DNA of 64,000 nucleotides from Azolla caroliniana (taxonomy: Eukaryota; Plantae; Polypodiophyta), in the NCBI GenBank assembly GCA_043228905.1, contig JBHGNT010000011.1, positions 2,604,001 through 2,668,000 on the forward strand. The letters run 5' to 3'. The position numbers and the translations under genes are program-made. The notes under the pieces are model-generated. The model searched no databases, was not told the DNA's origin, and worked only from the letters and a program-made list of their open reading frames with translations. Positions 32,915-60,747 of the stretch are shown piece after piece (within the stretch, counting starts at the first letter, position 1; each line of letters opens with the position of its first letter).

Positions 32915-33682
32915 GTGTAGTAGCTAATTACTTAACATGTAGTTAATTAGCTAAGTGGTAACTAATTAGCTACTACCATACTTTAGCTGAGTAGCTAATT
33001 AGCTACTATCATAGTTTACTACAGTAGCTAATTAGCTACTGCCATACTTCAGCTAAGTAGCTAATTAGCTACTACCATAGTTTAGTACAGTAGCTAATTA
33101 GCTAAGTGGTAGCTAATTAGCTACTACTATAGTTTAGTGTAGTAGCTAATTACCTAAGTGATAGCTAATAAGCTACTACCATACGCTAGCTAAGTAGCTA
33201 ATTAGCTACCACTTAGCTAATAAGCTACTACCATAGTTTAATACATTAGCTAATTAGCTAAATGATAGCTAATTAGCTACTACTATAGTTTAGTACAATA
33301 TCTAATTAGCTAAGTGGTAGCTAATTAGCTACTACCATAGTTTAGTACAGTAGCTAATTAGGTAAGTGGTAGCTTATTAGTTGTTTAGTACAGTAGCTAA
33401 TTCTTAACTAATTAGCTACTAGCATACGTTAGCTGAGTAGCTAATTAGCTACCACTTACCTAATTAGCTACTACCATAGTTTAATATGATAGCTAATTAG
33501 CTACTACCATAGTTTAGTACAGTAGCTAATTAGCTAAGTGGTAGATAATTAGTTACTACCATAGTTTAGTACAGTAGCTAATTAGCTACCAGTTAGCCAA
33601 TTAGCTACTACCATAGTTTAGTACAACAGTTAATTAGCTAAGTGGTAGCTAATTAGCCACTGTACTAAACTATGGTAGTACC
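32915..33682. repeat. Degenerate satellite built on the palindrome TAGCTAATTAGCTA (left part)
   Basis: Many TAGCTAATTAGCTA copies alternate with CTACCATAGTTTAGTACAG or AGTGG spacers. The array continues at 39454-39710. Confidence 0.92.
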
Positions 33683-33815
33683 TGTCAGGAACTCTATTAA
33701 GGCAGAGAAGGAATTAGTACTAAAAGAAGGATTAGTACTATTGTTGGGGAATAGTACTAAGACAGAGAAGGATTAGTACTATGAGAGGTGTCGAACTTTG
33801 AGAGAAGGAATGAGT

Positions 33816-33853
<38 letters not shown>

Positions 33854-34135
33854 TGATGCGAAAGATATATGTATTATATGAAGGAAGATATACAACAGTA
33901 GTTAGAAGGCTTAAGACTGGCGTTGAACCGATTTGGTTCGAACTAATGCCTTGCGCCTCCTTTTATAGTATCTTCAGGAATACTCCTGAAGTTTCTAGAA
34001 TGTTCCAGAGAAATCTGGAATATACATCAATTTCCCAATAAAACCTAAATGAAAATAATATCTTTCAAATTACAATTCATAACCTAATGGTAAAGTCTCG
34101 ACCCGTGTAACAAAAGGTTATGGGTTCGAGTCTAG

Positions 34136-37100
34136 TTATGACACTATCCCCCCTTTAAAACGACGAGTTCCACGAGTCGTTTTGGATTGAGGACCCGGTT
34201 TCTCGGGAGATCGTCGATGGAAGTCTTCTAGAAGAGCACGAGCATTGGTCACATTCTCGATCGGTTCCCAAGTACGCTCGCTGGGACTATATCCTAGCCA
34301 ATCGACTAGATAGTAGAGCTTGTTGCGAACAATCTTGGAATCGAGGATGGCAGCGACCTCATACTCAGGTCCATCTTCGAGCTCGATAGGAGGTGGTGGT
34401 TGTATAGTACGTCCTGGGATAGTGCTCTCGTGATAGGGTTCGAGGAGAGAACTATGAAACACCGGATGTATCCGAAGTTGCGGAGGTAGCTCGAGACGAA
34501 AAGCGACATCATTAATCTTCCCGATAATACGGAAAGGACCTAATCGCCGATAATCCAACTTCTCACATGGGCGAGTAGTCTTGATGTGTCGTCGTAGCAG
34601 CCACACCCGATCTCCAATGTTAAAACTGGATGGAAGTCGATGACGATCTGCGTAGTCCTTGTGTGATTGTTGAGCTTGCTGGAGTTGAGTAGATAAATCC
34701 GCTTGTATCTTGCGTAACCGCTCCAAACGATCCTCCGCGCAAGGATTTGTGGACACTTCTGGGGTTTCAAGGACACACCACCGGGGATGATATCCCGTAT
34801 AAGCGTAGAATGGCGTGACTTTAGTCGATGCGTGGATAGCGTTATTATAGGCAAATTCGGCGAACTGAAGAATATCTGCCCAGTCATTCTGATGATAGTT
34901 GAGAAAGCACCGCAGATACTGCTCCAGTGTTTGATTTGTTCGTTCGGCTTGACCGTCGGTTTGTGGGTGGTAGCCGGAGGAGAGGTTACAAGTGACCTTC
35001 AGCATTTTAAAAAGGTGCTTCCAGAATTTTGACACAAACTGGGGTCCACGATCGCTGATGATATTATCAGGGAGTCCATGATGCCGACATACTTCCCGCA
35101 TGACAATTTCGGCGGTGTCTTCACTAGATATTTCTTTAGTACATGGTAAGAAATGAGCCATCTTCGTATATCGATCCACCACTGTGAGAATCGCACTGAA
35201 TCCCTTAGAGACTGGAAGATCTGTAATGAAGTCAAGAGCAATGGATTGCCATGGCTTGCTTGGAATTGGTAATGGTTCTAATAAACCATATGGATGATGT
35301 CTTGGCATTTTCGCTCTGCAGCATGTATCGCAAGTCCGAACAAAATCTTCGACAAATTGTCGCATACGGGGCCACCAGAATGATCGTTGTACTAAATCTA
35401 ATGTTTTAGTACTACCAAAATGTCCTGCTGTATATGTGTCATGGCAGTTTTGTACTACTCGAAGGCGGCAAGAACCATTAGGAACATACAAAAGTTCTTT
35501 AAAGAAGAGTAATCCATCACAGTATTTGAATTGCCGATAATCCGTACCTGGTGATTGTGATTGTGAACATGACGCTCGAGAGGGGTCAATTTGTGCTAGT
35601 ATAGCTTGGGCGAAAGCGTCAGTCTTCAAGTCCTCACGTATAGTATTGGTAATGTCGGAATCCACGGGCATGTCAAAGACCTGTGCTGCTTGCAGTCGTG
35701 CTGGACCCAAGATTACTTGTTTCTGGTTATCGAAAGCTGGCTCACGGGGACGTGGTGTTAGATACGAACGCCGTGATAATGCATCTGCCTTCCCTTGGTG
35801 CTTCCCCGGACGATATGTAATTTTGAAGTCGAAGCGTGTGAGGAAGTGGGCCCACCGAGCTTGACGTCGATTCAGTACACGAGCATCTTGAAAGTAGGCA
35901 AGGTTCTTGTGGTCACTGAATACAGTGACCTGATGAGGAGATCCCTCCAGGAAATGCCTCCATTGCATAAAAGAATCAACTATTGCTAATAGCTCTTTAT
36001 CATGAATTTCGTAGTTGATTTCGGCGGCGTCAAACTTACGGGAGTGGAAAGCCACAGGATGTAGCTTCTCGTCGTTACCCTGTTGTGACAGAATGCTCCC
36101 CAATGCGAAATCCGATGCGTCAGCTTCGATAATGAATGGTTTTTCCGGATCCACATGACCTAAAATTGGAGCTGATGTAAACGCCTTCTTAAGACTCTCG
36201 AAAGCCATGTCCGTCTCTCTAGACCAAATGAATGATTGTCCCTTCCTGGTGAGCTGTGTGAGAGGCAGCACAATTTTTGAGTAATTTTGTATGAACTTCC
36301 GGTAAAAATTTGCAAAGCCTAGGAAGCATTGCACATCCCGCACCGAACGCAGAGTGTGCCATTCTATCACCGTTTTGACCTTGGCTGGGTCCATAGATAT
36401 GCCTTCTGAGGAGATGACATAGCCGAGAAATTCCACTTGGTTGCACCCGAAACTACATTTCTCTAACTTTGCATACAGACCATGTTCTCGAAGTCGTTTT
36501 AGTACTAATAGTACATGAGAATCATGTTCTTCTTGGGTCTTTGAATAAACCAGTAGATCATCCAAATAGATGATCAAAAAATCATCCAAGAGATCTCGAA
36601 ATATATCATTCGCCATGTGCTGGAAGACTGCCGGCGCATTAGTGAGTCCGAACGGCATGACCGTATACTCGAAGTGCCCATATCTGGTGCGAAACGCGGT
36701 CTTCCATTCATCTCCTGGTCGGATCCGTACGAGGTTATAGGCTCCTCGTAAGTCGATCTTCGTGAAGAACCTGGCACCGTTGATCCGTTCTAAAAGACTT
36801 GAGATAAGGGGAAGAGCATACCTATTTCTTACTGTGACCTTATTCAAGCCACGGTAATCTACAACGAGTCGAAGCGAGCCATCTTTTTTCTTGACGAAGA
36901 AAATGGGTGCGCCGGCTGGAGATTTCGAATGCCGAATGAAACCGTTCTCCAAATTCTCCTCTATATAGGCTCGAAGGACTTCTAGCTCGGTTGGTGACAA
37001 ATTGTAGATCGGCCCCCATGGCGGCTCTTTTCCCGGTTGTAAGTCGATGGCGCAATCGTACGGCCGATGATGAGGAAGTGTGTTGGCTTGTACTTTATCG

Positions 37101-37732
37101 AACACATCAGCATACTGACGATACTTCTCGGGAAGTTGAACGGTGGACTCCTCTTTGGTGGTGCTGGAGGGTTGTACTGATATTGCGAAGAGAAACATTT
37201 CCTCCTTGCGCCCTTCCTCACGCAACTGACGTAGCGAAATGGTTGCAACCTTCTGGGTAGATCCTTGGGTTTGTCGCAACCGGATTTCCCTTGTCCTCCA
37301 ATCTATGTCTGGGTTATGTAACTCGAACCATGGTAATCCTAAAACTATGGGATGTTCTGGAATACTAATAATATTAAATGATACTACACATGTTAAGTTA
37401 TCTAGGACAATATTAACGGGTTCCGACTCTTCTATGATATTGCCAGAAGCAATGGGACGACCATCAATGACTACTACTGAGGCTGGACATGGGAGTTTTC
37501 TGAGAGATATCTGATGAGCTCGGGCAAAATTCCTATCCATGAAGCAAGAATTAGCTCCGGAATCTAGAAGGGCTAAGGTATGTACTGGAGGGGTACTTTT
37601 AGTACTAACTGCTACTTGGGCTACGAACACATCACTAACTTGCTTAGAGGGAATGGAACCACTAATGGGCTGCACAGATCTAGGGCTGTCCAACCAAACG
37701 GCTCCTATTTTGGTTGGACTTAGTCGTTTAAC
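34136..37732 (-). CDS. pol: Pol polyprotein PR-RT-RNase H-IN-chromodomain, in the -1 frame relative to gag
   Basis: 1185-aa open ORF with LLDSGA, YLDD, ADASDFA, GHFG..CDTC, LDFITDL, GPF and EYEVAAILDS..YLVDWLGY..TWEP. The frame is open back to the slippery site at 37726-37732. Confidence 0.95.
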   Translation of the reverse strand, partial: VKRLSPTKIGAVWLDSPRSVQPISGSIPSKQVSDVFVAQVAVSTKSTPPVHTLALLDSGANSCFMDRNFARAHQISLRKLPCPASVVVIDGRPIASGNIIEESEPVNIVLDNLTCVVSFNIISIPEHPIVLGLPWFELHNPDIDWRTREIRLRQTQGSTQKVATISLRQLREEGRKEEMFLFAISVQPSSTTKEESTVQLPEKYRQYADVFDKVQANTLPHHRPYDCAIDLQPGKEPPWGPIYNLSPTELEVLRAYIEENLENGFIRHSKSPAGAPIFFVKKKDGSLRLVVDYRGLNKVTVRNRYALPLISSLLERINGARFFTKIDLRGAYNLVRIRPGDEWKTAFRTRYGHFEYTVMPFGLTNAPAVFQHMANDIFRDLLDDFLIIYLDDLLVYSKTQEEHDSHVLLVLKRLREHGLYAKLEKCSFGCNQVEFLGYVISSEGISMDPAKVKTVIEWHTLRSVRDVQCFLGFANFYRKFIQNYSKIVLPLTQLTRKGQSFIWSRETDMAFESLKKAFTSAPILGHVDPEKPFIIEADASDFALGSILSQQGNDEKLHPVAFHSRKFDAAEINYEIHDKELLAIVDSFMQWRHFLEGSPHQVTVFSDHKNLAYFQDARVLNRRQARWAHFLTRFDFKITYRPGKHQGKADALSRRSYLTPRPREPAFDNQKQVILGPARLQAAQVFDMPVDSDITNTIREDLKTDAFAQAILAQIDPSRASCSQSQSPGTDYRQFKYCDGLLFFKELLYVPNGSCRLRVVQNCHDTYTAGHFGSTKTLDLVQRSFWWPRMRQFVEDFVRTCDTCCRAKMPRHHPYGLLEPLPIPSKPWQSIALDFITDLPVSKGFSAILTVVDRYTKMAHFLPCTKEISSEDTAEIVMREVCRHHGLPDNIISDRGPQFVSKFWKHLFKMLKVTCNLSSGYHPQTDGQAERTNQTLEQYLRCFLNYHQNDWADILQFAEFAYNNAIHASTKVTPFYAYTGYHPRWCVLETPEVSTNPCAEDRLERLRKIQADLSTQLQQAQQSHKDYADRHRLPSSFNIGDRVWLLRRHIKTTRPCEKLDYRRLGPFRIIGKINDVAFRLELPPQLRIHPVFHSSLLEPYHESTIPGRTIQPPPPIELEDGPEYEVAAILDSKIVRNKLYYLVDWLGYSPSERTWEPIENVTNARALLEDFHRRSPEKPGPQSKTTRGTRRFKGGIVS

Positions 37733-38889
37733 TCTTCTTCTAATTGGCTAAGGACATCAAATTTGTTTGCGAGATTCAGACTATTAGTACTATTAGGACT
37801 ATTGTGACTATGAGGACTATCAGAGATTCCTACTGAAATAGACTCGGGTTTAGTATAGTCAGAACTAACAACGACTTGGTTTACCTGCCTTCTTGGTCTA
37901 TGGGGACAGTTTATCGCGATATGCCCTGGTCCACCGCAATAAAGGCATAATCGGTTTGTTCGGCGTCGTTGCTTTTCCTCCTCCGATAGCGGCCCACGAC
38001 GACGTGTAGTGTCAATTTCCATTGGAGTTGGAGTACTTACTGGAGGCGCATTATGTGACTCCCTTTGAAAAGGTTTCGCTACCACTGAGGCATAGGTCGG
38101 CTCGGATCTTGCCCTCGGCATCTGAAATTGTCGTTCCGAACGTCGCTCGAAGAGGCGGTTGTCACATCTGACCGCTCGACTGATTGCTTCTGTTAATGAT
38201 TTTGGCTCTTCAGGGAAAGTCAAGAGTAAATCCTTGACATCGTTGCGTAGACCATAGCGGAACTGCTCCATCAATGCTTGATCATCCCAGGGGATATCGG
38301 CGGCGAGTAGGCGGAAATCTGCAGCATATGCGGAGGCTGGACGGTCACCTTGGCGTAATCGCCGGATTTTGTTGATTGCAGTCCTTATGCTGTCAGTATC
38401 TCCAAAACATGCTTTAAACTCACTTATGAATTCTTCAAAATTATTTAGTACTGGAGATTCCTTTTCTAGTAGCGGAGCGAACCATGCTAATGCTGAGCCA
38501 TTTAACAACGTGCCTACTAAACCCACTCGTGATGCATCGGTGGGATATCGGGACGGATGCATTTGAATAACTAACCGTACCTGGTTAAGAAACCCTCTAA
38601 ACTGCGATCGCGTTCCATCGAACTTCGTGGGAAGGCCAATCTTGGGTTCTTTATGAATCCCTTGTGCTCCGTGCCCTTGTTGTTGCATTGCTACGATGGT
38701 TGCTTCGAGTTGTTGCACGCGTAACGCAAGTTCCCCATGTTGTTGTTGCGTTTGCTGCTTTTCTAAGGAAATTTGCTGAAGATCCCCCAACAAGCGTTGA
38801 TTTTCTTGTTCCAAAGCATGGAACTTCTCTTTCAAGCATTGAAATTCCGAGAAAACGGATTGATACTCTTCAGCGCTAACGGTGGCCAT
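37720..38889 (-). CDS. gag: Gag (PEG10/Tf1-like capsid with CCHC knuckle)
   Basis: 389 aa with an N-terminal coiled coil, KFDGTR..F, LRQG..YAADF, PMEID and CLYCGGPGHIAINC. Confidence 0.95.
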   Translation of the reverse strand: MATVSAEEYQSVFSEFQCLKEKFHALEQENQRLLGDLQQISLEKQQTQQQHGELALRVQQLEATIVAMQQQGHGAQGIHKEPKIGLPTKFDGTRSQFRGFLNQVRLVIQMHPSRYPTDASRVGLVGTLLNGSALAWFAPLLEKESPVLNNFEEFISEFKACFGDTDSIRTAINKIRRLRQGDRPASAYAADFRLLAADIPWDDQALMEQFRYGLRNDVKDLLLTFPEEPKSLTEAISRAVRCDNRLFERRSERQFQMPRARSEPTYASVVAKPFQRESHNAPPVSTPTPMEIDTTRRRGPLSEEEKQRRRTNRLCLYCGGPGHIAINCPHRPRRQVNQVVVSSDYTKPESISVGISDSPHSHNSPNSTNSLNLANKFDVLSQLEEELND

Positions 38890-39123
38890 GGGATGAAGGA
38901 AAAGGGAAATAAGAGACTAGTAGGAAAGGAGGGAGACAGAAGGAAGAGGGAGAGAAAAGACCAGACAGGCACCCGAAAATCGGTTCAAACTGTCAGGAAC
39001 TCTATTAAGGCAGAGAAGGAATTAGTACTAAAAGAAGGATTAGTACTATTGTTGGGGAATAGTACTAAGACAGAGAAGGATTAGTACTATGAGAGGTGTC
39101 GAACTTTGAGAGAAGGAATGAGT

Positions 39124-39163
<40 letters not shown>

Positions 39164-39453
39164 TGATGCGAAAGATATATGTATTATATGAAGGAAGATA
39201 TACAACAGTAGTTAGAAGGCTTAAGACTGGCGTTGAACCGATTTGGTTCGAACTAATGCCTTGCGCCTCCTTTTATAGTATCTTCAGGAATACTCCTGAA
39301 GTTTCTAGAATGTTCCAGAGAAATCTGGAATATACATCAATTTCCCAATAAAACCTAAATGAAAATAATATCTTTCAAATTACAATTCATAACCTAATGG
39401 TAAAGTCTCGACCCGTGTAACAAAAGGTTATGGGTTCGAGTCTAGTTATGACA

Positions 39454-39710
39454 GTACCTAATTAGCTACCACTTAGCTAATTAGGTACTACCATAGTTTA
39501 GTACATTGGCTAATTAGCTAAGTGGGAGCTAATTAGCTACTACCATACTTTAGTTATAGTGGCTAACTAGCTAGTACCATACTTTAGTTGAGTAGCTAAT
39601 TAGCTAGTACCATACCTAAGCGAAGTAGCTAATTAGCTCAGTGGTAGCTAATTAGCTACTGTCATAGTCTAGAAGAATAGCTAGTTAGCTAAGATGTAGC
39701 TAATTAGCGA
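39454..39710. repeat. TAGCTAATTAGCTA satellite (right part)
   Basis: Same units as 32915-33682, split by the chromovirus insertion. Confidence 0.9.
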
Positions 39711-41593
39711 CCATGTTGTTGTAGAATCTTGTGGATTAAGGAGGGCGCATGAGCTGTCTGGTGCTTATGATGCTGCAACTGATGAGGAGATAGTTGCCAA
39801 CGTGGCTGAAAGTAAGAGTCTTGCTATCACATCTCCTTCAGATCAGCTCCACCCTATTCTTTTGGAAGATGGTAATGAATTAGGCAACGATGTGAAAAGC
39901 CATGAAATATTGGAAACAACATGTAAATCTGAGATTCACAACAATAGTGTTTTTGAACACTTGATGCAATATTTCTTCGAATCCCAAAACCTTGATTCCA
40001 CCCCACTGAGCCCAACTACTTATAATGTCCAAACAGATCCCACTGTACTGGAAAAGCTAGTGCAAGACGTGGCTGACCTGCAAGCCGCTGGTGAGGTGAT
40101 GGAAAGGTTGTCGGAGGAGGACACACTTGCACAATGGGTCAAAGAAGCAAGGCTAAATGGGTTACCAGCTAAAAAATGGCTGAAGAAGGGACAATGATCG
40201 GGGACAAGACCAGTTACTCGGTCAAGGGGCTCTTGAATTGGAGCGAAATACTTATTAGTGGGATATGATTGTTAGGGATTTTCCTAGGGTTTTATGAAGT
40301 TTTACTATGATCTATTTGGACAAGTAAAACCTCAGATTGGTTATTGCTTGATCCACATTATGTAATGGAACTCTATGATGTTTCTCCAAGATAATTATGT
40401 TCATGTTTCTATGATGGAAAATATTTCATGTTCATTATGTTGTTTTGTGAGACTGTTAGTTACTTTGTGAGTGTGAATATGTTGGTGTTTTCTGATGTTT
40501 CAAAGTCTAAAGGGTTTGAATATATTGCTCCTAAGGCTGATGGCAGTGAGGAAACTATTGATGTTGCTACGTGTTTAGAAGGCCACATCTTGAAAGTAGA
40601 TGTAGCAACTAACACAAATGATCTGGTCACGCAAGTTGATCAAGCATGTTGCATAGATGATCTGATTTTGTAGGTAGATGCAGCATGTGATACCAGTGGG
40701 CTGATATCGACCAGATCAGTATCTACATGCACTGAGCCAATGACTAAGTCGACAACACAAGAGCACCAGAATGTGAAGCCAGGCCCAACACAGTCGACTA
40801 GGGGTTTGAAGAGGAAAAGGACACCAATTGTGCCGACAGAACCTGAGTTGGTTGAAATTGATCATGTGCTACCAGTAATTGGTGTAACTACAGGAATGGA
40901 AACCTAAACCATTAGAAGTAGAAAGAAGAGCCTTGATCTTGGAGCTTGATAAAGTCCTGATGAGTGTGCGATATATGACACCAAGGAGGGACGCAAATCA
41001 ATTTCTTGAGTGGGTTGTGCAATATTTTGATTTGTTTATTGTTATTCCTTAGGGCCGGACAATGGCCTAACACAAGGTGTCTATGGAAGACACTTCACCA
41101 AAGGGGTGCTACGGCGAGATAACTTAAGACTCAACGATTAATCAGACTTTAATTGGTTACTTAGCAATATGGCATTAAACTTGATACACGCATATGATAA
41201 AACAATTAGCACAGAACGATAATCAACACTTAAAGATAAAACAAGAAGCTCTATTAATTATCCGTCAAAGTTTTACATTGTAACCGGGCCTTTATATAGG
41301 TCACCGGTGCTGAGTACAAAACGGTGTCAACCGGCACCTGTTCAGAACCGGTCCGGATCCGGATCGGCATACCAATTCCGGTCCGTCCGTTTACGTCTCA
41401 TAAACTACTTAATTATAATAGATTCCGAATATACAATCCTTTTCACATTCTGGTCTAGGTAACACATGGCACGCCCGTGGGACAATACCTTGTACGTCGA
41501 ATCCCACTATCCAGCCCCTTAGCCTTCGTCCAAGATATCCAGAATACTCTACTCCAGGGTATCCAATGGTTCTTCAGGAATCTGTTGTTGCTG

Positions 41594-44203
41594 CTATTGT
41601 GGCTGTTGTTGCTCCGGCTCCGGCTCCTCCGACTGTTGCTCCTTGGATGGCGTCTGTTTGGCTCCCGGTACCGGCGGTAGTGGCGATGATTCCTCCGTCA
41701 GCTGTTTTGCTGGATTTGACTCCGGTTGACTCGCCCCAGCCTTGTCCCCGTCGGGTCCTTGCCCCGGCGATGACTCCTCATCGCTGAGGTTGAAGGTCGT
41801 CGCCTGCCTTGCTTCTTCTTGCCGTAGCCTAGTCCGCTCATAGCTTTCAAACTGGATTTGAGCATTGTCGTAGCCTAGTCTGCTCATAGCTTTCAAACTG
41901 GATTTGAGCATCCAGTCAATCATCGTCCAGTTGTGCTACCAGTTGCCGGACCACTACTGACTGTTCCTCCACCAGAGTTACAAAGTCTTCTGCTCACTCA
42001 TCTCTTACGGCAGTGAAGTCCTCCTTTGTTAGCATGTAGCAGTTGTTGCCATCCTTCTGCTGGTTTTCTGCGTTCGCCCTTAGCAACTGGACCTCGGTTG
42101 TGTGCTTTGCCCATTTGTCCCACCATTGCACGGAGCTTTTGTCAATCAAGAATTTTGTCTTGTTCCTCCATGCCTGGACAATGAACTAGATCCGCTCAAG
42201 TCCCATCTTCGATTTGTCCTCCACGGCGTGTCGTTCTTCCTTCAATTGCTTGATCAGCTTCACCGTGTCCGCCTCTTGCTCCCGGTAATGTGACAATTGG
42301 TTTTGGTAGGTGTTCTGCAACCTCTGCAATACCATTGTCGCTCTTTCCTTTTCTTCATAATGCTGCTTCTGGAGCTCCATACATTCCTGTGCGGCTTCCT
42401 CCAGTAGCGTTTTTCTTTCAGCTCGTTCTTCAGCTAGCGCTGTCTCGGCTCGATGAACTTCTTGCCGGAGCTCTGCCATCTTCTCCTGCTGCTTCTTATG
42501 CTCCGTATCCAGGTGCTTATAGTCCCGGTGTAGGTGCTCAAAAACATCGGTCTTCAGCTTCAGCTTCTGGTTGAGTTGTCGAAGAGCGCGGTCTCCCCGA
42601 TCTTTCTGTTGACGGAGTTCTTCTTTAAGTCTTTCAATCTCCGTTTCCGGCATCTGTCACAGCTTATCCTTTTCTTGCAACACTTTCTCTTTCTCCTCCT
42701 TAAGCCGGTCATATGCCTGATGTCCTTTCCATAGATTCTCTTCTGCCCGGCGGAGGTTCTCAAAAGTCTTTCTTTGTTCTTCTTCTGCCACTTTCTTCAA
42801 GTCCCTTTCTCGGGTGCGTAATGCTTCTTGTGCGGCCAGTTCATCTTTCAATTTGGCAAGCTCTTTCACTTGTGCCGCCACTGTCTCCGGGACTGGTTCC
42901 GTTTTCAGGGTCTTATTACTATGTACAGGTGCTGGTGTGTCTTTATTCTGTACATCTACTGGAGTCAGTGACTAGCAACTAGTCCATCTACGCTTTCTCT
43001 TCCGCCTCTATGTAGTGCACCACTCCGGCAATCTACTCTCCAATCCACCGGAGCCATTGGTTGTCGGTGCCCTGTTGTTGCGTCTGCACGGAGGGTTGGC
43101 TGTTGGTTCCGTTAGCCAGTGATCAGTCTTGTCCGGTTGTGTCGAGCTGCAACTCTGTCTCTGGTTGGTGACCACTTTGCCGTTATGGTTCCGGTTGCAC
43201 CTCCGTTGGCCGCTCTGCCTCTGATTGCTCTTGACCTGCTGGTGAGGGTGGCAATTGTACTACCGGCGCTTGAATTTCGGGTCTTGCCATATCCTGACCT
43301 GCCGGTATAGCTTGTTGTGCATGGAGCTCTGTGACCGGTTCGGTCCGAACCAATTCCGGTTCCACCCTTGGTGCGGGATGCTTAGTGCGGGATAGAGGCG
43401 TTCCATCCTTCTTTGGGTCCGAACGCTCCCCAGCCTGTTCTGCGGTGCTTGCCTTCTGGCGCCGCTGGAAGTGCTCTAACGGTTCCTCCTCCGCTTCCTC
43501 CTCCTGAGTCCCGATGTTGACTTTTGTTGCCAAGGGGTCCGACTCTTGTTGAACCGGTCGATGAAATATGATCTTGATTGGCCGTGCCGGTGTCTCCTCT
43601 TGCATTTCCGCCTGCCGCTTCCTATGGGCGCACTCTTTTGCCGCCTTGTCCGTGTCAGCCGCCTTCCCTTTGGGTGCCTTAGAGACCAACAGATGCTGCC
43701 GTTTCGAAGCCATTTTCGGGGTGCCTTCGGTCGTTCTCCCCCGCTTCGTGGTCTTGGCGGGCTCGATAGGTGGCGCCAATAGGGTGAGCCATTGCGCCAC
43801 TGCAGTCCATATTTTCCGACCCTCCTTGCCTCTTACAGAGTCGATGGCCGCACAGAGGCCGTCCGCAATCAGTACCGGCCAGTCCACCTTCACACCTTCA
43901 TACTTTGTTATGACTAAGCCGGCTCAGTTCTGAGGCATGCACGGGGGTTGAGGGTATACATGTCCAAATTCATGCAGCACACGGGGAATCTCTCGAAATA
44001 ATGTATCTTCGTCGTCTTGTGTCCTGTAGGCCTTGCTGACCAAAGAGTATTCGCCAAAATATTTTTGGAGCTGCTCCGGGGTAGGGTTGTCGATAGTGAA
44101 GATGCCCCCCTCCGGAAGGCCAATCAAAGCATGGATGGCCTCCTCCGTGATCAGTTATGTGTCGATTTCCTTTACGTCGTGTGCTAGAATAGAATGTCGT
44201 GCC
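41594..44203 (-). pseudogene. Extra 3' ORF of the Gypsy: globular N-terminal domain, Pro/Glu-rich linker, long coiled coil
   Basis: Same-strand ORF pieces 43924-44127, 43183-43893, 42657-42881, 42186-42653 and 41594-41923, broken by stops and a small duplication. Confidence 0.65.
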
Positions 44204-45463
44204 ATGTGGCGGCGGTTTAATACCCTATTAATAGCCCACTACGTCCCTTTTCAAAGTGCCTGTTCACTCCGCGTTCTTGCATGTGTCCGTTCACACCTCG
44301 CCCTTGCATGATTTACTTTGATTTGATTTGATTTGATTTTTTATTATTTTTATTTTTATTTTTATTTCGCATCCGGTCCCACTGGACCCCTATCCGAATT
44401 GTGGGACTTGTCGGCCGCTGGACTGCTTGCCGTCGCGCCGTTCTTGCCGTTTGCCGGCTCGTGCTCCCTCTTACCGACTTCGCGCTTGCCGATTGCTAAA
44501 TGTGTTGCCGTCTCTTTCGACCTACCGGTATCCGGTTCTATGTCGGCCTTTAGTTGTTCAAATGGGTTTCTTGGCATGGGTCCATTGTATGGTTTGAGGC
44601 GGAACCCATTGACCCATTTACCCAGAACCTCGCCGGCGAGTGTCCCTAACTGGTAAGAACTATTGAACTCACGCGTGATCCAGTATGAACCGGTCCATCG
44701 AAACCGTAGCTTCCCCGGCATCTTACCCATTCGGGTCTAGAATACTAGTACCGGCTTACCGATTTCGAACATCTTTTCGTTCCCTTTTCGGTGACGATCC
44801 ACGAACGTTTTCTTTCGCCGTTGCTCTAGTTCTAGGTGCATGATGTTGGCTAGCTGGTGTTCTTCCAATTCACATAGCGCGGCTAACCGGATTGCTTCTG
44901 ATTCCTTCTCATTTAGGTGTTCCTGAATCTGTATTTGTAAACTCGGTACCTGGAACTCAACCGGCATCACTGCTTCTAATCCGAATGCTAGGCGAAATGG
45001 TGTTGTGCGGATACTTGTCTTATATGCCGTTCGATAGGCCCAGAGTGCACTATGTAGCTTTGTATCCCAATCCGTCCGGTTCTCATTGACGATTTTTCGA
45101 AGGATGTTCTGTAGTGTTTTATTTGTTTACTCGGCTAATCCGTTGGCTTGCGGATAATAGGGAGTGCTCCGTTTATGCACCACCGCATAGAATGTCGTCA
45201 AACTTTCCACCACTTGCCCTAAGAAGTGGCCACCTTGGTCACTTATTAGCTCTATCGGACATCCATACCGGCACCAGATGTATTCATATAAAAATTTTGC
45301 CGCGGTGTTGTCGCGTAGTGCTTTGGCTTCCACCCATTTGGTGCAATAATCTGTAGCGATAATCACGTACCGGTTGCCGGTTCTCATTGCTGGTGGTTTG
45401 AATGGACCAACAAAATCCAGCCCCCATTTCTGAAATGGTTCTAACGGTAGCACAGGCTGGTGA

Positions 45464-45848
45464 GGCATCCTGGCTTGTTCGGTTGGTTGGCCCATTCGTT
45501 GACATAGGCCGCATTCTTTAGCGTACCGGACTGCATCCTTCAATGTTGTTGGCCACCATAGTCCACTCTGCCATATTTTCCTTGTCGTAGCGGCATCCTG
45601 GCTTGTTCGGTTGGTTGGCCCATTCGCTGACATAGGTCACATTCTTTAGTGTACCGGACTGCATCCTTCAATGTTGTTGGCCACCATAGTCCACTCTGCC
45701 ATATTTTCCTTGTCGTAGCGGCATCCTGGCTTGTTCGGTTGGTTGGCCCATTCGCTGACATAGGTCACATTCTTTAGTGTACCGGACTGCATCCTTCAAT
45801 GTTGTTGGCCACCATAGTCCACTTTGCCATATTTTCCTTGTCGTAGCG
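45464..45848. repeat. Three tandem copies of a 128-bp unit inside the integrase zinc finger
   Basis: GGCATCCTGGCTTGTTCGG..CTTGTCGTAGC recurs at about 45464, 45592 and 45720. The peptide KIWQSGLWWPTTLKDAVRY appears three times. Confidence 0.9.
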
Positions 45849-46378
45849 TCTCCGGCATAATGTCCTCCGGCCACTCCGCAGTGTTCTTCGCACAATATTA
45901 TGTCCTTTTCGTCGTTGCGCACTACACACCGCCATATGCCATCTGCACCTTTGTGGTACAATGTGTCCTATAATAGACAGAAGTGTCGGCTTTTAACCAC
46001 TAAGCGTTTCCTCTCGTCTCTGTTCATCTCCTCCGGAGGTAAGCTGGTGCTCACAAATTGGTGCATGTTGGTGAGCCACTTGTCTTCCTCTACGACCGTA
46101 CCATCTGTTGTCGTTTCTGTTGTGACTCTAAACAACTTGGCATCCGGGAACTTGTCTGCGACGCCGTCACCGGTTTCGCCGGAATCTAACCGGCTCAAAT
46201 AGTCTGCTACTGCATGTTGTATGCCGGGTCAGTGGAATATCTCAAACTCAAATTCTTGTAATAGTAACATCCACTAGGCCAGCTTACCGGTGAGTGATGC
46301 TTTGGACACCAAATAGAGGAGCGTCGAATGATCTACGTGAATGGAAAATTTCCTTCCCAACAGATAGTGTCTAAAGTT

Positions 46379-47292
46379 GGTACTTGTGCATCTTGTATGT
46401 TGTTCAGCTCTTGTCGAAGCTGCAACTTACGGGTTGTGGTACTCGCGGTGAAAATCTTCCTTGGATTTCCCCAGGCCTCCTTCGGCGTTTTTGTATCCTT
46501 TATGTAGTCGAGCATCTGCTCATGCAATCAGGACATGAGGCATTACAATACTCGGCTTGCTCCTTGCTCCCATACTAGGAAGTCCTGGTGTGCCGGCTCC
46601 GGCACTAACTCATTCGTTCCTTCCACGAAGCTCCAATATCCATGCCCCAGTAGGTACTGGTGCATCTTGTATGACCAGGACGCGTAGTTGCTCCGGTCGA
46701 GCTTCTCTGTTGGAAGTGAACTCGCCATTCCTCTATCTATATCTTCTCTCTGTCTATTGTTATCGGGTCCTAGGGTTCATTTACGAAAGCAAGTGTCGGT
46801 TGCAGAGGTTCTCAACCCTCGCGCTTTGATACCATATGAATGTTAACGTGCGGAAGCGTTAGACAGAACCGGCTCAGTCGAATAGCAACAGAGAATAAGA
46901 TGAAGGTTTAATGGAGAAGCTTAATACACAGAGAGTATACGCTGGAGAGACAGAGAGAGCAAAGCATAAATGTAGATTCAAAATATAATAAAAACACTCT
47001 GTACATATAACGTGCTAAACAACACTATTTATACAAGTCCTCAAAAGGACTGACAGAAGTACTATGTATATCAATGCTCATACGGGCGACTAACACTAAA
47101 TACGAGACAATGACTACCTAGTAGTCTAGGCTACTACTAGGCTTCCAGTTCGCACTCGAATCTGGTTCTCCGATATGTCTCCCCGATCCGGCCGATTCTT
47201 TCCGGATACCGATCCGGCTCATCCTCCCGAATGTTGATCCGGCTCTGGCCTATTCAGCCGATCTGGATCCGGTTGAGCTTGCTCGCTCAACA
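46379..47292 (-). mobile_element. Copia I 5' end (5' LTR 46835-47292, PBS, gag start), same family as Copia G and H
   Basis: PBS TGGTATCAAAGC and gag MASSLPTEKLDRSNYASW. The LTR is similar to 29148-29592. Confidence 0.88.
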
Positions 47293-47363
47293 AAATCATA
47301 TAAATCTGTGTCAGAGAGCATCATTCCCATAACCCCCCTTTGGTGAAGTGATCCGGAAAGACA
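47293..47363 (+). repeat. Terminal remnant of an LTR related to the 41078 LTR
   Basis: CCCCTTTGGTGAAGTG..AGACA matches the minus-strand end of the 41078-41466 LTR (CCCCTTTGGTGAAGTGTCTTCCATAGACA). Confidence 0.55.
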
Positions 47364-47711
47364 CCCTGTGTTTGTGGCTAGTCCCGCCCAGGATAAACAA
47401 TTATCTCAACAACATTATGTGTTGAATATGCTATACAAATTCGGCATGACGGATTGTTGGGAAATCGGTCCTTCCGGATGGGATCCGATGATGAATGAAG
47501 AGGACCTAGTGAGGACTAGAAGAGACCCGGAAACAAGATTGGATGGACCCGGTGAGAACCGGAAGTGAAGGCATATTTGTAAATATGTTTTGAGTAAGCC
47601 TATTGAGGCTATATTTGTAAATAGCCCTAACTTCATATAAGTATAAATATGATTTAGGGCGATCACTTTGAGGGTGTTGTTGTTGTCATATTGTTGTATG
47701 TGCACAACTGT

Positions 47712-53226: not shown

Positions 53227-54569
53227 ACGCGATTGTATGTACCTGGCCGGATATCAGATATGTAGTCAGAGTGGTGAGCCAGTTCATGAGCAATCATGGA
53301 AAAGAGCATTGGAACGCGGTCAAGTGGATGCTCCGGTACTTGAAAGGCAGCTCGAGTATGTGCCTCCGGTTCAGCTCTGATAAACCCCAACTTGACGGAT
53401 TCACGGATTCGGATATGTCGGTTGATGCGGATACCAGTCGGTCTACATCCTGATATGTCATGACTTATGTAGGGGGAGCTGTATCATGGCAATCAAGGTT
53501 GCAGAAGACGATTGCGTTGTCAACCACAAAGGCGGAGTACATAGCAGATGTAGAAGTCAGCAAGGAGATAATCTGGATGAAGGACTTCATCGGAGAGCTA
53601 GGGATCCAACAACAATAATACCGGCTCTACTGCGACAGTCAAAGTGTCATCCACCTTGCAAAGAACGCGGCCTACCATTCCCGGACGAAACATATCTAGC
53701 GTAGGTACCACTGGATCCGGGAGAGAGTAGAACATCAAGAGTTCATGTTGACGAAGATCCACACGGAGGAGAACGGGTCGGATATGCTATCAAAGGTGTT
53801 GACAACCGACAAGTTGGACGCGTGCCGAAAGCGGATCGGGCTGGCGAGACATCCCATGCCAAAGTGAAGGGGGAGATTGTTGGGAAATCGGTCCCTCTAG
53901 ATGGGATCCGGTGATGAATGAAGAGGACCCGGTGAGAACCGAAAGAGACCCGAAAACCGGATCGGATGCACTCGATGAGAACCGGAAGAGATCCGGAAAC
54001 CGGATCGGATGGACCCGATGAGAACCGGAACAGAGGACATATTTGTAAATATGTTTTGAGTAAGCCTATTGAGGCTATATTTGTAAATAGCCCTAACTTC
54101 ATATAAGTATAAATATGACTTAGGGCAACCACTTTGAAGGTGTTGTTGTCATATTGTTGTATGTGCACAACTACTATATATATAGAGAGAGAGAGATACA
54201 AAGGCATACTCTGTTGTAACCGTCGGCTGGCGAAGAAATAGAGCTCGAGGTCGTTGACTCCGAGTCTCTATTTGTACATTTCTTATATATAGAGACAGTT
54301 CGGAGTCTGTGGGCTCCTGTGGTTTTTCCCTATTAGCGTTTTCCACATAAACATCTTGTGTATCCTCTATCATTGTTTGTGTGTGTACGTGCGTTAACTC
54401 CCTACTTCCCATTTCTGTGTTTTGATTCTCATAGAAGGGATTCAAGTCTTGGTTGTGGCCGAGCAATCTTCCGCGCTATTCTCAACATGGATTTTCCATC
54501 TGCCTCCACTCCTCTCAACAAAAACCTAAAGCTACGTCCTGACTCGGAAGTGGCTTGCGATGAGAAACG

Positions 54570-57500
54570 TGAAGTTAAACTCATTGCCGGCCACGACCAG
54601 TTTTACGTTGTTGAGTTGTTACGCTCTTCGCGTGTGGAAAGAGGCGGGACCACGGGGGCCTTGAACCAAGGAGCATGAGAAAGGAGAGAGAGAGAGAGAG
54701 AGAAAAAACCCAGCTTGCAGAAACACAAAGGGAGAAAGAGAACAAATTCTTAATTACAAATCAATAACGAATACAACCAGCAAGCCGGCAACGAACCCAA
54801 CTCAGGCGAACGCACACGCACACGACCCCGACTGCACTGTGGAGCTTCTACCGGAAGCACACGGGCTGTCCACAAAGCATAGGCAACTCAGTCCGGAATC
54901 CTGCAGAGAATGACGAACGATGGAGGAGAGAGCTCGGTCCCAGTCCGGCAGCACTTCGTCCTCGCTCTCCAAAACGTGATACCTCATCCGCCTTCTTCCT
55001 TCCCTTTTGTAGGCCCTCGAGGCAGGCCGTTGCACCCTCATTTTCATCAAGTTATTCTCTGTCCTTTCGAGCAGAGATACTCTTTGATTTCCAAGACATT
55101 CAATGCGTCACATCTAGTCTCTTTGCTCCCACTGTCCTACTCCTAGTTATTTACAAGGTATCAATTGGTGTGGAAAAGTGTAGGCCTGGTTCATGCGCCT
55201 TGCTTCGCTGATTCCGCTTCTGGCTAGTTTTCTTCACGACATCCACCCCCACCAAACCGTGCATCCACCAGTATGCGCCGGAGAGGGTTAGATACCGGAG
55301 AAAACTGGCTCGCGTTCACTCGTCGCCCTCCGGACTATCGGCGTCCCCGAACCGATCGTCATCGTTATCGCTCGCCCGCTCCGGCTCGTCTTCGTACCGC
55401 TTCTTGAACGCTTTAATCCGCTTCCCGGCTACCGGCACCGCCAATCGTGTCCCGTCAAGCTCCGCAAGATGGTACGTGTCGTTGTCATTCGTGCTCGTCA
55501 CCGTGTAGGGCCCGAACCATCTCCTCGCAAATTTGCGAGTCGCCTTGTGCTGGTTGTCGAGGCTGCTATCGTAAACCAACACCCAGTCGCCTTCCTCGAT
55601 CTTCTTCGGTCGTAGTCAGTGCGTCCTGTCGAACTGGGTTTTGTTTTGTTCCCTTGCCGCGTGCAGCTTCTCCTTCGCCTGTTTCACGTCCTCCGGCCTC
55701 CGCTCAAGTTGCCGGATCCGCGCCGTCAACAACTCTTCCCGGCTCATATTGTCCTTCCAGCCCACCGCAGCCCATGAAGAAATCGTCCGTTCCGCCGGCA
55801 TGATTGGCTTCTGCCCGTACATTAGTTCTGCCGGCATGAACCCTGTTACCGAACTGTGCATAGTCCGGTCTACCCACAGCCCATAGGGTAAAAGCCGCGG
55901 CCAGTTCCCGACTTGGCCTCCACACGCCCGTACTAACGCTTTGACGATCGGCCCATGCCCTCGTTCCACCTTCCCGTTAGCCTCCGGATTGTACGCCGTG
56001 GTGAGCGAGAGTTTAACCCCTAGCCGGTCAAACAACTCCTCAGCCTCTTGCGCGTCTAGTTCTCCTCGGTCGGCCACGATCTTGCCGACGCACCCATACC
56101 GGCATACCACATCTTCGATTAGAAACCGGCACACGACCGCAGTTGTTTTGTTCTGCAATGCTCGGCCTGCCACTTGGTTCGTCAGGTCCTCCCGAGCCAG
56201 CACCAGATATCGCGTCTGCCCTTCCCCCATCGGCATCGTCACCAGATCCACCATCCACTTGAAGTGGACGGTTAGAGGGTAGGTTGGGTGAAGCTCGTCT
56301 CGATGTCGGACTATGGAGTGCATCTTACAGCTTTCACAAGTCGTTACGAACCGATGCACATCCCGATATAGTCCTGGCCACCAGTACTTCCCCTTCAGCT
56401 TCTCGAATGTGGCCCACGTCCCGCGGTGTCCGGCCCAAGGACTCTCGTGGTATGCCATCAGCAGCGCTTTCTGCTCGTCCTCCCTCACCATTACGCGGAC
56501 TGGGGTGCCGCTTCGCTTCTTCGGGTGCTTCCATATGCGCCCTTACCGTAGGAAGAACCGGTACGCCCTCTTCCACACCTGGCAGGCCTCTTCTCTCGTC
56601 CACGCCGCGTCCAGTGTCATCGTCCACAGGAACCTCCCAATTCGGAGCCACTCTCCGTCGTACTCGCTCTCGTCAAACTCATTTAGCGTCGGAGTGCTCC
56701 CCTTTCTTGTTGTTACGTTGGCTGACCCGAAGAAGTCCTCTCCGACTTCCTCGTTATCCGAAACCATGCCATCCTCGTCACTGAACCGCGCCCTTGAAAG
56801 CATATCGGCCATGGCATTATCCTTCCCGGAGATGTGTCGTATCTCCGAGTTCAGGGACTTGATGTACGTGATCCACCTGAGCATCGCCAGGTCAGGAGTC
56901 GCGCATCCGGAGACCATACCCAGAATCGGTAGGCAGTCCGTCTCGATTATCACTTTCGTCCCGATCAGATAGTCCTTGTCGGCCTTGACGACCGAAACGA
57001 TACCCCATAGCTCGCGCTTAACTTGGGCGTATCCTCGCTGCCGCTCGCTCAATACCTTCACCCCGAACCGGATCGGGAACCGTACGCCGTCCTTGCCCTC
57101 TTGACTGATCACCCACCTGATCCTAGTCCGGCTCGTGTCCACCATCACGTAGATGGGGACTTCCTGGCCGTAAACTGCTTCCCGGAGAGCCGGTACCGCA
57201 GCAAGCGCCTCCTTCAATCTCCGGACCGACTCCGCGTGCTCCGTCCTCCACTAGAACCTACGCCCATTCTTCAATAGCCCATAGAGCGGTTCCGCAACAT
57301 GTGCATAGTGCGGAATCCAGATGTGGTAGAACGCGCATGCACCCAAGAATCGGCGAACCTTCATAACCGACCCGCAATCGTCTTTCATCACGAAGATGGC
57401 TTCTACCTTGGCCGGGGACGGTTTCCAGCCATAGGGCCTGCACAGGTGTCCAACTACCAGGATCTCCATCTGCCCGAACGTTGATTTCTCTCCGGAGAAG

Positions 57501-60282: not shown

Positions 60283-60747
60283 TGTTAGGAAACCGGTCCC
60301 TCCGAATGGGAAGTGAGAAGAACAGTACTGATGAGCAAACTCGGCCAAGGCCGATAGGCCGAGGCCGAAAGCGGATGTGGAGGACCCGGTTACGGAAGAC
60401 CCGGTGAGAACCGGATGTGGAGTACCCGGCTACGAAAGACCCGGTGAGAACCGGATGTGGAGTACCCGGCAACGAAAGACCCGGTGAGAACCGGATGACG
60501 AGTACCCGACAATGGAAGACCCGGTGAGAACCAGATGACAAGTACCCGGCAACAGCCGGATGGTGAAGGCCCGGTGAGAAGTGCTCACCGGATGAAGGGA
60601 CATATTCGTAAATATGTTTTCTGAGAGTCCATCGGGGCTATATTTGTAAATAGCCGAAAAGTCATATTATTATAAATATGACTTAGGGAAAACTTAGTAT
60701 TGTTGTTGTCATTCTTGTTGGCGCAAGATTAGAGCGCAACAGTGTAT

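What the first reader, a model, noticed from the sequence alone, without database searches (positions are those of the whole stretch)
41440..41520. Gypsy element with a tRNA 3' half ending in CCA where the polypurine tract should be
Seen: IN and the extra ORF read on the minus strand toward an LTR that also appears minus-oriented (GC-rich U3, CCTATATAAAGG, T-rich U5), so it should be the 3' LTR. Directly before it there is no PPT. Instead the strand reads GATAGTGGGATTCGA-cgtacaaggtatt-GTCCCACGGGCGTGCCA|TGTGTT. Knowledge, recalled rather than searched: plant tRNA-Arg(UCU) ends ..GATTGTGGGTTCGAGTCCCACCGGGCGTG-CCA. The match covers the T-arm (GTGGGA/TCCCAC still pairs) and extends beyond an ordinary 18-nt PBS. 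Inference: this lineage may prime plus-strand DNA with a tRNA or an encoded tRNA mimic rather than a PPT, or carry its own primer. I am not aware of this being described.
Basis: partly seen in the sequence, partly recalled or inferred. Interest (0 to 1): 0.85.

Follow-up and report, generated by a model that had tools for sequence, protein, structure and literature searches.

The report
tRNA site replaces retrotransposon's polypurine tract
A clade of plant (probably fern) Gypsy retrotransposons has no polypurine tract and instead carries, two bases before its right-hand repeat, a conserved copy of an arginine tRNA's 3' end split by a small hairpin, which likely lets a second host tRNA start the second DNA strand, a route we found no description of.

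Summary
Observation confirmed and family-wide. The window holds the broken 3' half of a non-chromovirus Ty3/Gypsy element (RH-IN-eORF-3' LTR, minus strand). No polypurine tract precedes the LTR. A 41-nt cassette (41467-41507) does: it equals the last 28 nt of a tRNA-Arg(UCU), minus base 66 and with a 13-nt hairpin between bases 58 and 59, and ends 2 nt before the LTR's TGTT. All 43 of 43 copies, across five LTR groups with no detectable LTR similarity to each other, keep this layout, and the hairpin covaries. The LTR's other end carries an ordinary PBS followed by gag, so this is no rearrangement. A full-length relative with only 53% pol identity (L045) again lacks a PPT and has hairpin + tRNA-like end + CCA + 2 nt + LTR. 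Best reading (about 60%, untested): host tRNA anneals to minus-strand DNA and primes the plus strand. Main rival (20%): the element's own tRNA-shaped RNA fragment primes. The host tRNA was not obtained. Ten literature searches found no description. This scan noted the same feature before on other DNA of the same genome (8 unreviewed notes).

The parts
41467..41507 (-). tRNA-end cassette at the PPT position: on the coding (minus) strand identical to tRNA-Arg(UCU) nt 49-76 except for missing nt 66, one extra A and a 13-nt insertion; on the opposite strand it is a split tRNA-binding site
   Evidence: conserved island
41467..41483 (+). 17-nt PBS-like segment (10 nt + 7 nt, one base short of a canonical 18-nt PBS)
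   Evidence: one-base form in 43 of 43 although the search pattern allowed one or two bases
41485..41495 (.). 4-bp mini-hairpin with 3-nt loop inside the 13-nt insertion (outer pair mismatched on + in this copy)
   Evidence: 92% of cells paired, 3 of 4 pairs with changes on both sides
41497..41507 (+). T-arm box complementary to tRNA nt 49-58
   Evidence: also kept with one change in 3 of 3 copies not picked by the pattern
41465..41466 (-). 2-nt spacer between CCA and the LTR start
   Evidence: (43 of 43 are 2 nt; sequence varies)
41040..41464 (-). 3' LTR, 425 bp, TGTTA..TAACA, followed by unrelated flank; 88% identical to the L041 LTR
41290..41299 (-). TATA-like box CTATATAAAG, found by the scan on the coding strand only
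   Evidence: window and L041
41582..44175 (-). extra ORF (aligned part; about 1000 aa and open in L041 and L034; here with 12 stops and 2 frame changes); acidic and coiled-coil-like, no Pfam hit
44365..46381 (-). RNase H - integrase part of pol, broken, with a 128-bp triplication at 45464-45848; gag, protease and RT are lost in this copy
46382..47292 (-). truncated Copia (LTR 46835-47292, Met-type PBS at 46834, start of gag) joined to the Gypsy RH; not part of the cassette family
47293..47399 (+). right-hand end of a diverged relative LTR (73% over 79 nt) in opposite orientation, cut by the Copia insertion

Best explanation
This Ty3/Gypsy clade has a conserved tRNA-Arg 3'-end cassette where the polypurine tract should be, and likely uses a second host tRNA, bound to the new minus-strand DNA, to prime the plus strand. 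Shown: LTR - PBS - gag-pol - eORF - cassette - 2 nt - LTR, no PPT, and a covarying mini-hairpin at the 58/59 boundary. Inferred: (1) a tRNA at the 5' PBS primes the minus strand as usual; (2) RNase H clears the RNA over the cassette; (3) tRNA-Arg(UCU) anneals to the exposed DNA by 10 bp, a one-base bulge, 7 bp and a further 8-10 bp of its T-arm, with the mini-hairpin looped out as a three-way junction; (4) RT extends the CCA end, copying 2 nt and then the LTR; (5) the tRNA is removed as at the other end, and integrase trims the 2 nt.
For: Position: CCA lies exactly 2 nt before the LTR in 43 of 43 copies. The non-autonomous family has the same geometry at both ends, CA + 2 nt + TGGCACGCCC (both sites in one contig with a 5' flank in L038). 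No PPT: purine fraction 0.45-0.50 in the last 20 nt and longest purine run 8 or less in 60 nt, whereas 6 of 6 control LTRs of other elements in the window have a G-rich purine tract. The cassette is shared by five LTR groups with no blastn similarity between groups (26 LTRs tested) and stands as a sharp conserved island in 4 of 4 runs carrying four organism codes. The spacer is 13 nt in 40 and 14 nt in 3 of 43 though 5-25 was allowed, and its stem covaries (score 0.485 against 0.207 +/- 0.041, 0 of 500 shuffles; slid controls 0.295 or less). The tRNA-identical parts do not covary with each other: the cis T-stem falls to 3-4 bp in 10 of 22 distinct cassettes with no compensation. That pattern is expected if the partner is an invariant outside molecule. 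The full-length relative L045 (pol 53% identical, LTRs 93%) has an 18-nt 5' PBS, no PPT, and hairpin + 18 nt ending CCA + 2 nt + TGTT; that 18-mer is the best match to the tRNA end of 44,344 positions in the locus (13 of 18).
Against: No experiment. The host tRNA set was not obtained. The tRNA used is from a viral contig, found with a pattern made from the cassette (2 hits, 1 a tRNA), so that match is partly circular. The fixed 3' strand and TTCGA box were partly forced by my search pattern (only 3 unselected copies support them). RNase H acidic motifs look intact, so a tRNA end on DNA should be a substrate, and how it would survive is unexplained. In L045 the T-arm box is degenerate and the coding strand can fold on itself (-12.9 kcal/mol, no shuffle control), which suits the rival. 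Two of the five covariation measures did not beat shuffles (107 and 443 of 500), and related copies inflate the others. Most loci come from one series of metagenome assemblies, and several are probably collapsed repeats. No target-site duplication was established.
Confidence: 0.6

Rival explanations
1. The primer is the element's own RNA: the cassette folds into a T-arm-like hairpin that escapes RNase H, stays paired to minus-strand DNA by its last 10 nt, is cut after CCA and is extended as a tRNA mimic that replaces the PPT.
For: Same position and 2-nt spacing. The window, L001 and L002 copies fold with the T-stem closed and most of the 3' tail free. The 10-nt tail equals the length of the 5' PBS match in the non-autonomous family. 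The L045 coding strand folds into a multi-helix with a free GTGCCA tail.
Against: Whole-cassette folding is no better than shuffles (z -1.5 to +1.2 for 9 RNA, -0.5 to +0.5 for 9 DNA). The cis T-stem erodes without compensation in 10 of 22. Strict identity to a host tRNA end would not be needed.
Confidence: 0.2
2. The cassette is a helper for first-strand priming or packaging: it pairs with the 5' strands of the primer tRNA (or with the 5' PBS), opens the tRNA and bridges the two RNA ends, while the plus strand is primed by some other RNA fragment.
For: Ty3 uses a bipartite PBS split between the RNA ends (PMC5371799, passages). The 5' PBS match is short (10 nt by recall for the autonomous family; 10 nt for the non-autonomous one). 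In the non-autonomous family the 5' PBS is complementary to the cassette tail.
Against: Ty3's 3' part is complementary to tRNA, this one is identical to it. The autonomous family and L045 have 5' PBSs of other sequences, and L045's is a full 18 nt. This reading does not explain CCA 2 nt from the LTR or the missing PPT.
Confidence: 0.1
3. Polarity is reversed: an RNA antisense to gag-pol is the template, the cassette is the first-strand PBS and the short site near gag serves the second strand.
For: The cassette is the longer and better tRNA match in the window's family.
Against: The TATA-like box was found on the coding strand only. Gag starts 43 nt after the 5' PBS. L045 has a full 18-nt PBS in the ordinary place. 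The constant one-base deletion argues against regeneration of the site by copying an 18-nt tRNA end.
Confidence: 0.06
4. Rearrangement or assembly artefact: the 5' LTR and PBS of a plus-strand element were joined to an unrelated minus-strand pol.
For: The window is a nest of broken elements, and this copy is fused to a Copia upstream. Several loci look like collapsed repeats.
Against: IN-eORF-cassette-LTR is collinear in L041 and L034 with open frames. L038 and L045 hold both LTRs and both sites in single contigs. The junction recurs in hundreds of contigs per run.
Confidence: 0.02

Closest known systems
Plant non-chromovirus Ty3/Gypsy, Athila side of the OTA superclade (Neumann et al. 2019, PMC6317226: passages, section 13, supplementary table file 3; ATHILAfinder bioRxiv 10.64898/2026.03.20.713144: passages)
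   Same: gag-PR-RT-RH-IN order, no chromodomain, no additional RNase H found, a 3' forward extra ORF, a non-Met PBS separated from the LTR by a short T-rich spacer.
   Different: Athila uses tRNA-Asp/Asn/Ala and has a conserved PPT at the internal-3' LTR junction. This clade has Arg-like sites, a short LTR and no PPT.
Ogre, Retand and TatIII (tRNA-Arg PBS users)
   Same: tRNA-Arg-type primer site next to an LTR; L011 shows the ordinary 18-nt form of the same motif.
   Different: They carry an additional RNase H, not found here, and their Arg site is the first-strand PBS, in sense, after the 5' LTR.
Yeast Ty3 and Ty1 reverse transcription (PMC5371799, passages)
   Same: tRNA-primed first strand; bipartite tRNA contacts that include the T-arm, in Ty1 split by a small internal loop.
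   Different: The plus strand is primed by an RNase H-resistant PPT; no second tRNA site on the minus strand.
Helenus and Cassandra TRIMs (PMC10886601, passages)
   Same: LTR elements that carry a small-RNA-derived (tRNA or 5S) sequence.
   Different: There it lies inside the LTR as a promoter-type sequence and a normal PBS and PPT are kept. Here it is outside the LTR, ends in CCA and stands in place of the PPT.
Self-priming Tf1/Tcn1 and half-tRNA Copia lineages (PMC6317226 section 13)
   Same: Known departures from the standard priming scheme.
   Different: All three primer types listed there concern the first strand; none replaces the PPT.

Membership tests
Ty3/Gypsy LTR retrotransposon | gag-PR-RT-RH-IN order between direct LTRs | tested here: met
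   Pfam on P0003, L041 and L045; LTR pairs in L045 and L038
Ty3/Gypsy LTR retrotransposon | PBS just inside the 5' LTR | tested here: met
   9 of 12 autonomous LTR ends are followed by CAGTTTT-TGGCGACC, the other 3 by flank; 18-nt PBS in L045. The tRNA identity of these two sites is recalled, not tested (one search found nothing).
Ty3/Gypsy LTR retrotransposon | polypurine tract just inside the 3' LTR | tested here: not met
   0 of 43 family copies and not in L045; 6 of 6 control LTRs have one
Ty3/Gypsy LTR retrotransposon | 4-5 bp target-site duplication | tested here: inconclusive
   Only L045 has both flanks; they share 3 nt next to TG..CA
Chromovirus | chromodomain after integrase | tested here: not met
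   no PF00385 hit in P0003, P0014, L041, L045; control Tcn1-type element in the window has one
Tat (TatI-III, Ogre, Retand) | additional RNase H domain | tested here: not met
   one RNase H region only in P0003, P0014, L041, L045 at E<=0.05
Athila | RT/RH/IN clusters with reference Athila sequences | not testable with these tools
   no labelled reference set was available; a quick IN tree places the family and L045 in a 24-row clade (SH-aLRT 96) with three Adiantum proteins, apart from Pinus and Riccia relatives
Athila | tRNA-Asp/Asn/Ala PBS and conserved PPT-3' LTR junction | tested here: not met
Phygy / Selgy | no extra ORF; tRNA-Trp or tRNA-Ala PBS; 4-bp TSD | tested here: not met
   about 1000-aa extra ORF present; features
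tRNA gene | complete cloverleaf | tested here: not met
   ARAGORN 0 in the window and 0 in 42 loci; Rfam 0 in 41000-41800 at E<=5

The most novel reading that the evidence does not exclude
A whole clade of fern and related plant Ty3/Gypsy elements, with its non-autonomous parasites, has abandoned the polypurine tract and primes both DNA strands with host tRNAs, the second annealing to DNA through a hairpin-containing three-way junction: a symmetric, PPT-free mode of LTR reverse transcription.
Probability: 0.6. Interest if true: 0.9.

Novelty: new variant of a known kind. Interest (0 to 1): 0.8.

Why it matters
PPT priming of the second strand is treated as general for retroviruses and LTR retrotransposons (PMC5371799, PMC10886601, passages), and the known exceptions in priming concern the first strand (PMC6317226 section 13). 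A high-copy natural clade without a PPT makes it testable what RT and RNase H really need in a second-strand primer, and how an RNA end on DNA escapes RNase H. It would also mean that annotation tools which demand a PPT, or take orientation from the best PBS, miss or invert these elements.

Tried and rejected
No whole genome was held, so there is no genome-wide catalogue and no host tRNA set. No RNA holder was listed, which says nothing on expression. ARAGORN and Rfam found no tRNA gene in the window or loci. Viral-contig scans for the cassette, for a tRNA matching the 5' PBS and for pol relatives found nothing. L011 was dropped from all counts as an ordinary 18-nt PBS with a 23-nt gap. L013's upstream pol (27% identical) first looked like a second pol lineage with the cassette; it is a nested element of another family with its own PPT-like junction. 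The 47293-47399 LTR piece first suggested plus-strand polarity; it matches the LTR end that precedes the PBS, so it is the right-hand end of a separate relative. Co-folding with the L043 tRNA end gave -26 to -36 kcal/mol with RNA parameters; it shows the geometry only, since complementarity was the selection. The careful IN tree did not finish; the quick tree used 54 of 59 rows (4 short, 1 no hit). The other 9 of 10 loci showed no cassette in motif scans; most are short or belong to other lineages. Literature: searches listed no paper on tRNA-primed plus strands or a tRNA copy in place of the PPT. One search was swamped by a poor term and one search returned unrelated primers. The library lacks most subscription journals and Repbase reports. 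Of Neumann et al.'s supplements only 17,418 characters were searchable, so the per-element table may hold such elements unseen.

Full report
What is in the window. The minus strand carries RNase H and integrase of a Ty3/Gypsy element (46381-44365), a long broken extra ORF and an LTR at 41464-41040. Gag, protease and RT are missing: a truncated Copia is joined to the RNase H. Directly before the LTR the strand reads GTGGGATTCGA-CGTACAAGGTATT-GTCCCACGGGCGTGCCA, then 2 nt, then TGTTACC. It is not a tRNA gene. Against a tRNA-Arg(TCT) gene from a viral contig (L043) it matches 27 of the last 28 nt. Base 66 is missing, one A is extra, and 13 nt are inserted between bases 58 and 59, the edge of an ordinary 18-nt PBS. 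The one-base shortfall can be read from tRNA geometry alone. The host's own tRNA was not available.

Is it a family trait? A metagenome scan with a pattern that left the spacer free (5-25 nt) gave 43 matches in 42 loci. One, L011, is an ordinary PBS and was dropped. With the window this leaves 43 cassettes. All 43 have the one-base-short form. The spacer is 13 nt in 40 and 14 nt in 3. CCA is followed by a variable dinucleotide and then TGTT in 42 of 43. The 26 LTRs long enough to compare fall into five groups with no blastn similarity between groups. Three further copies not picked by the pattern keep the layout. Logan contigs of four runs with four organism codes pile up on 41458-41505 at hundreds of times the depth 30-50 nt away and diverge on both sides; the depth is a sum over contigs, not a copy number. 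These loci come mostly from one series of assemblies and are not independent samples.

Which LTR is it? Loose ends at the other LTR end showed a second PBS-like motif, and the loci confirm it. Nine of 12 autonomous LTR ends continue CAGTTTT-TGGCGACCA; the other three, the window among them, run into flank. Gag follows on the same strand in L041, L015, L022, L034, L002 and L036, 43 nt after the PBS in L041. L041 and L034 hold IN, an open extra ORF of about 1000 aa, the cassette and the LTR in order, and the window is collinear with them at 80-88%. A TATA-like box was found on the coding strand only. L041 and similar contigs may be collapsed repeats, but each junction stands on its own. A non-autonomous family shows both sites in one contig: L038 has flank, 5' LTR, CA, TGGCACGCCC, internal part, cassette, GG, 3' LTR.

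No PPT. The last 20 nt before the LTR are 45-50% purine, and the longest purine run in 60 nt is 8 or less in all 43. Six of six LTRs of Copia and chromovirus elements in the window have a G-rich purine tract.

Structure. The insertion holds a 4-bp stem with a 3-nt loop. In 22 sequences picked to cover the distinct forms, 92% of cells pair and 3 of 4 pairs change on both sides. The covariation score is 0.485 against 0.207 for shuffles (0 of 500) and at most 0.295 for slid controls; two of the five measures did not beat shuffles, and relatedness inflates the rest. The whole cassette folds no better than shuffles as RNA (9 copies) or DNA (9 copies). The tRNA-like T-stem in cis has 5 bp in 12, 4 bp in 5 and 3 bp in 5 of 22 distinct cassettes, with no compensating change, though my pattern fixed much of the 3' strand. 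Co-folded with the L043 tRNA end, most copies give 10 bp, a bulge, 7 bp, the looped-out hairpin and 8-10 bp more; this illustrates geometry and is not a test.

Depth of conservation. A scan of genome contigs with a pol alignment gave 10 loci. L045 is a full-length element, pol 53% identical, LTRs 93% identical, in a probably misbinned contig of unknown host. It has an 18-nt PBS 2 nt after the 5' LTR and gag behind it. Before the 3' LTR it has no PPT but a 7-8 bp hairpin, then GCTCCACCAGGTGTGCCA, 2 nt and TGTT. That 18-mer is the best match to the tRNA end among 44,344 positions (13 of 18). Its T-arm box is degenerate, base 66 is present, and its coding strand can fold on itself, which counts for the rival. 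A quick IN tree (54 of 59 rows; the careful search did not finish) puts the window's family and L045 in one 24-row clade (SH-aLRT 96) with three Adiantum nelumboides proteins, apart from Pinus and Riccia relatives. The best named relatives are from that fern, so the host is probably a fern (inference). The Adiantum DNA could not be fetched, so the cassette is untested there.

Mechanism. Shown: the layout, the missing PPT, the 2-nt spacing, the symmetric ends and the covarying hairpin. Inferred: the strand complementary to the cassette is the minus-strand DNA, which a tRNA-Arg(UCU) could bind so that its CCA sits 2 nt from the LTR, where a PPT primer would end. I put this at 0.6, an element-derived tRNA-shaped RNA primer at 0.2, a helper role in first-strand priming at 0.1, reversed polarity at 0.06 and artefact at 0.02. 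RNase H acidic motifs look intact, so either primer must resist or outrun cleavage by an unknown means. No target-site duplication was established. The tRNA types behind the two 5' PBS sequences are recalled only; one search found no matching gene.

Comparison with what is known. The clade lacks a chromodomain and an additional RNase H, which leaves the Athila side of the non-chromoviruses in Neumann et al. (PMC6317226; passages, section 13 and supplementary table). Athila has Asp/Asn PBSs and a conserved PPT (bioRxiv 10.64898/2026.03.20.713144, passages), so I do not file it there. Ty3 and Ty1 have bipartite tRNA contacts but PPT-primed plus strands (PMC5371799, passages). Helenus carries tRNA-like sequence inside the LTR and keeps its PPT (PMC10886601, passages). 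The Retand paper gave nothing on this (PMC11963269, passages). Ten searches (listings only unless named above) found no description; subscription journals, Repbase reports and most of the Neumann supplements were not visible. Eight earlier unreviewed notes of this scan report the same feature elsewhere in the same genome. My reading was recorded before I saw them, and they are not independent support; a look-up for look-alikes in other genomes returned nothing.

Verdict. A real, conserved, clade-level feature: a new variant of LTR-element replication with a strong structural case and an untested mechanism. Interest 0.8.

Noticed in passing
L045:7895-15226: In the distant relative, pol runs without a stop from protease through integrase into the extra ORF as one 2444-aa frame; in the window's family the two are separate ORFs.
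   Followed up: no
L045 / G001:C10: The element lies in a contig of a bacterial MAG whose one side is GC-rich with bacterial-looking ORFs and whose other side is plant-like: probably a chimeric or misbinned contig. Host unknown.
   Followed up: partly
window 33682-39456 (-): Near-intact chromovirus of Tcn1 type: LTRs 99.4% identical, gag 398 aa, pol 1203 aa with chromodomain, normal PPT.
   Followed up: partly
window 32917-33683 and 39447-39711: AT-rich, partly palindromic tandem repeat with 19, 33 and 52 nt spacings, split by the chromovirus insertion.
   Followed up: no
window 54500-60500 (-): A second, unrelated Gypsy family; its relative nested in L013 (66-67% DNA identity) has a PPT-like junction.
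   Followed up: partly
L012, L016, L026, L029, L037, L038: Non-autonomous family with the cassette, a 330-380 bp LTR holding a long palindrome near its right end, and the same tRNA 10-mer at both inner ends; tandem units in L003 and L012.
   Followed up: partly
window 45464-45848: 128-bp segment of the integrase zinc-finger region present three times at 96-98% identity.
   Followed up: no
window 46380-46420: The Copia-Gypsy junction contains a near copy of about 20 bp from 270 bp upstream in the Copia gag, like filler DNA at a repair joint.
   Followed up: no
L041:3319-6327: The extra ORF has no Pfam hit and only 7 homologues (42-79% identity), all unnamed, among proteins of similar length.
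   Followed up: partly
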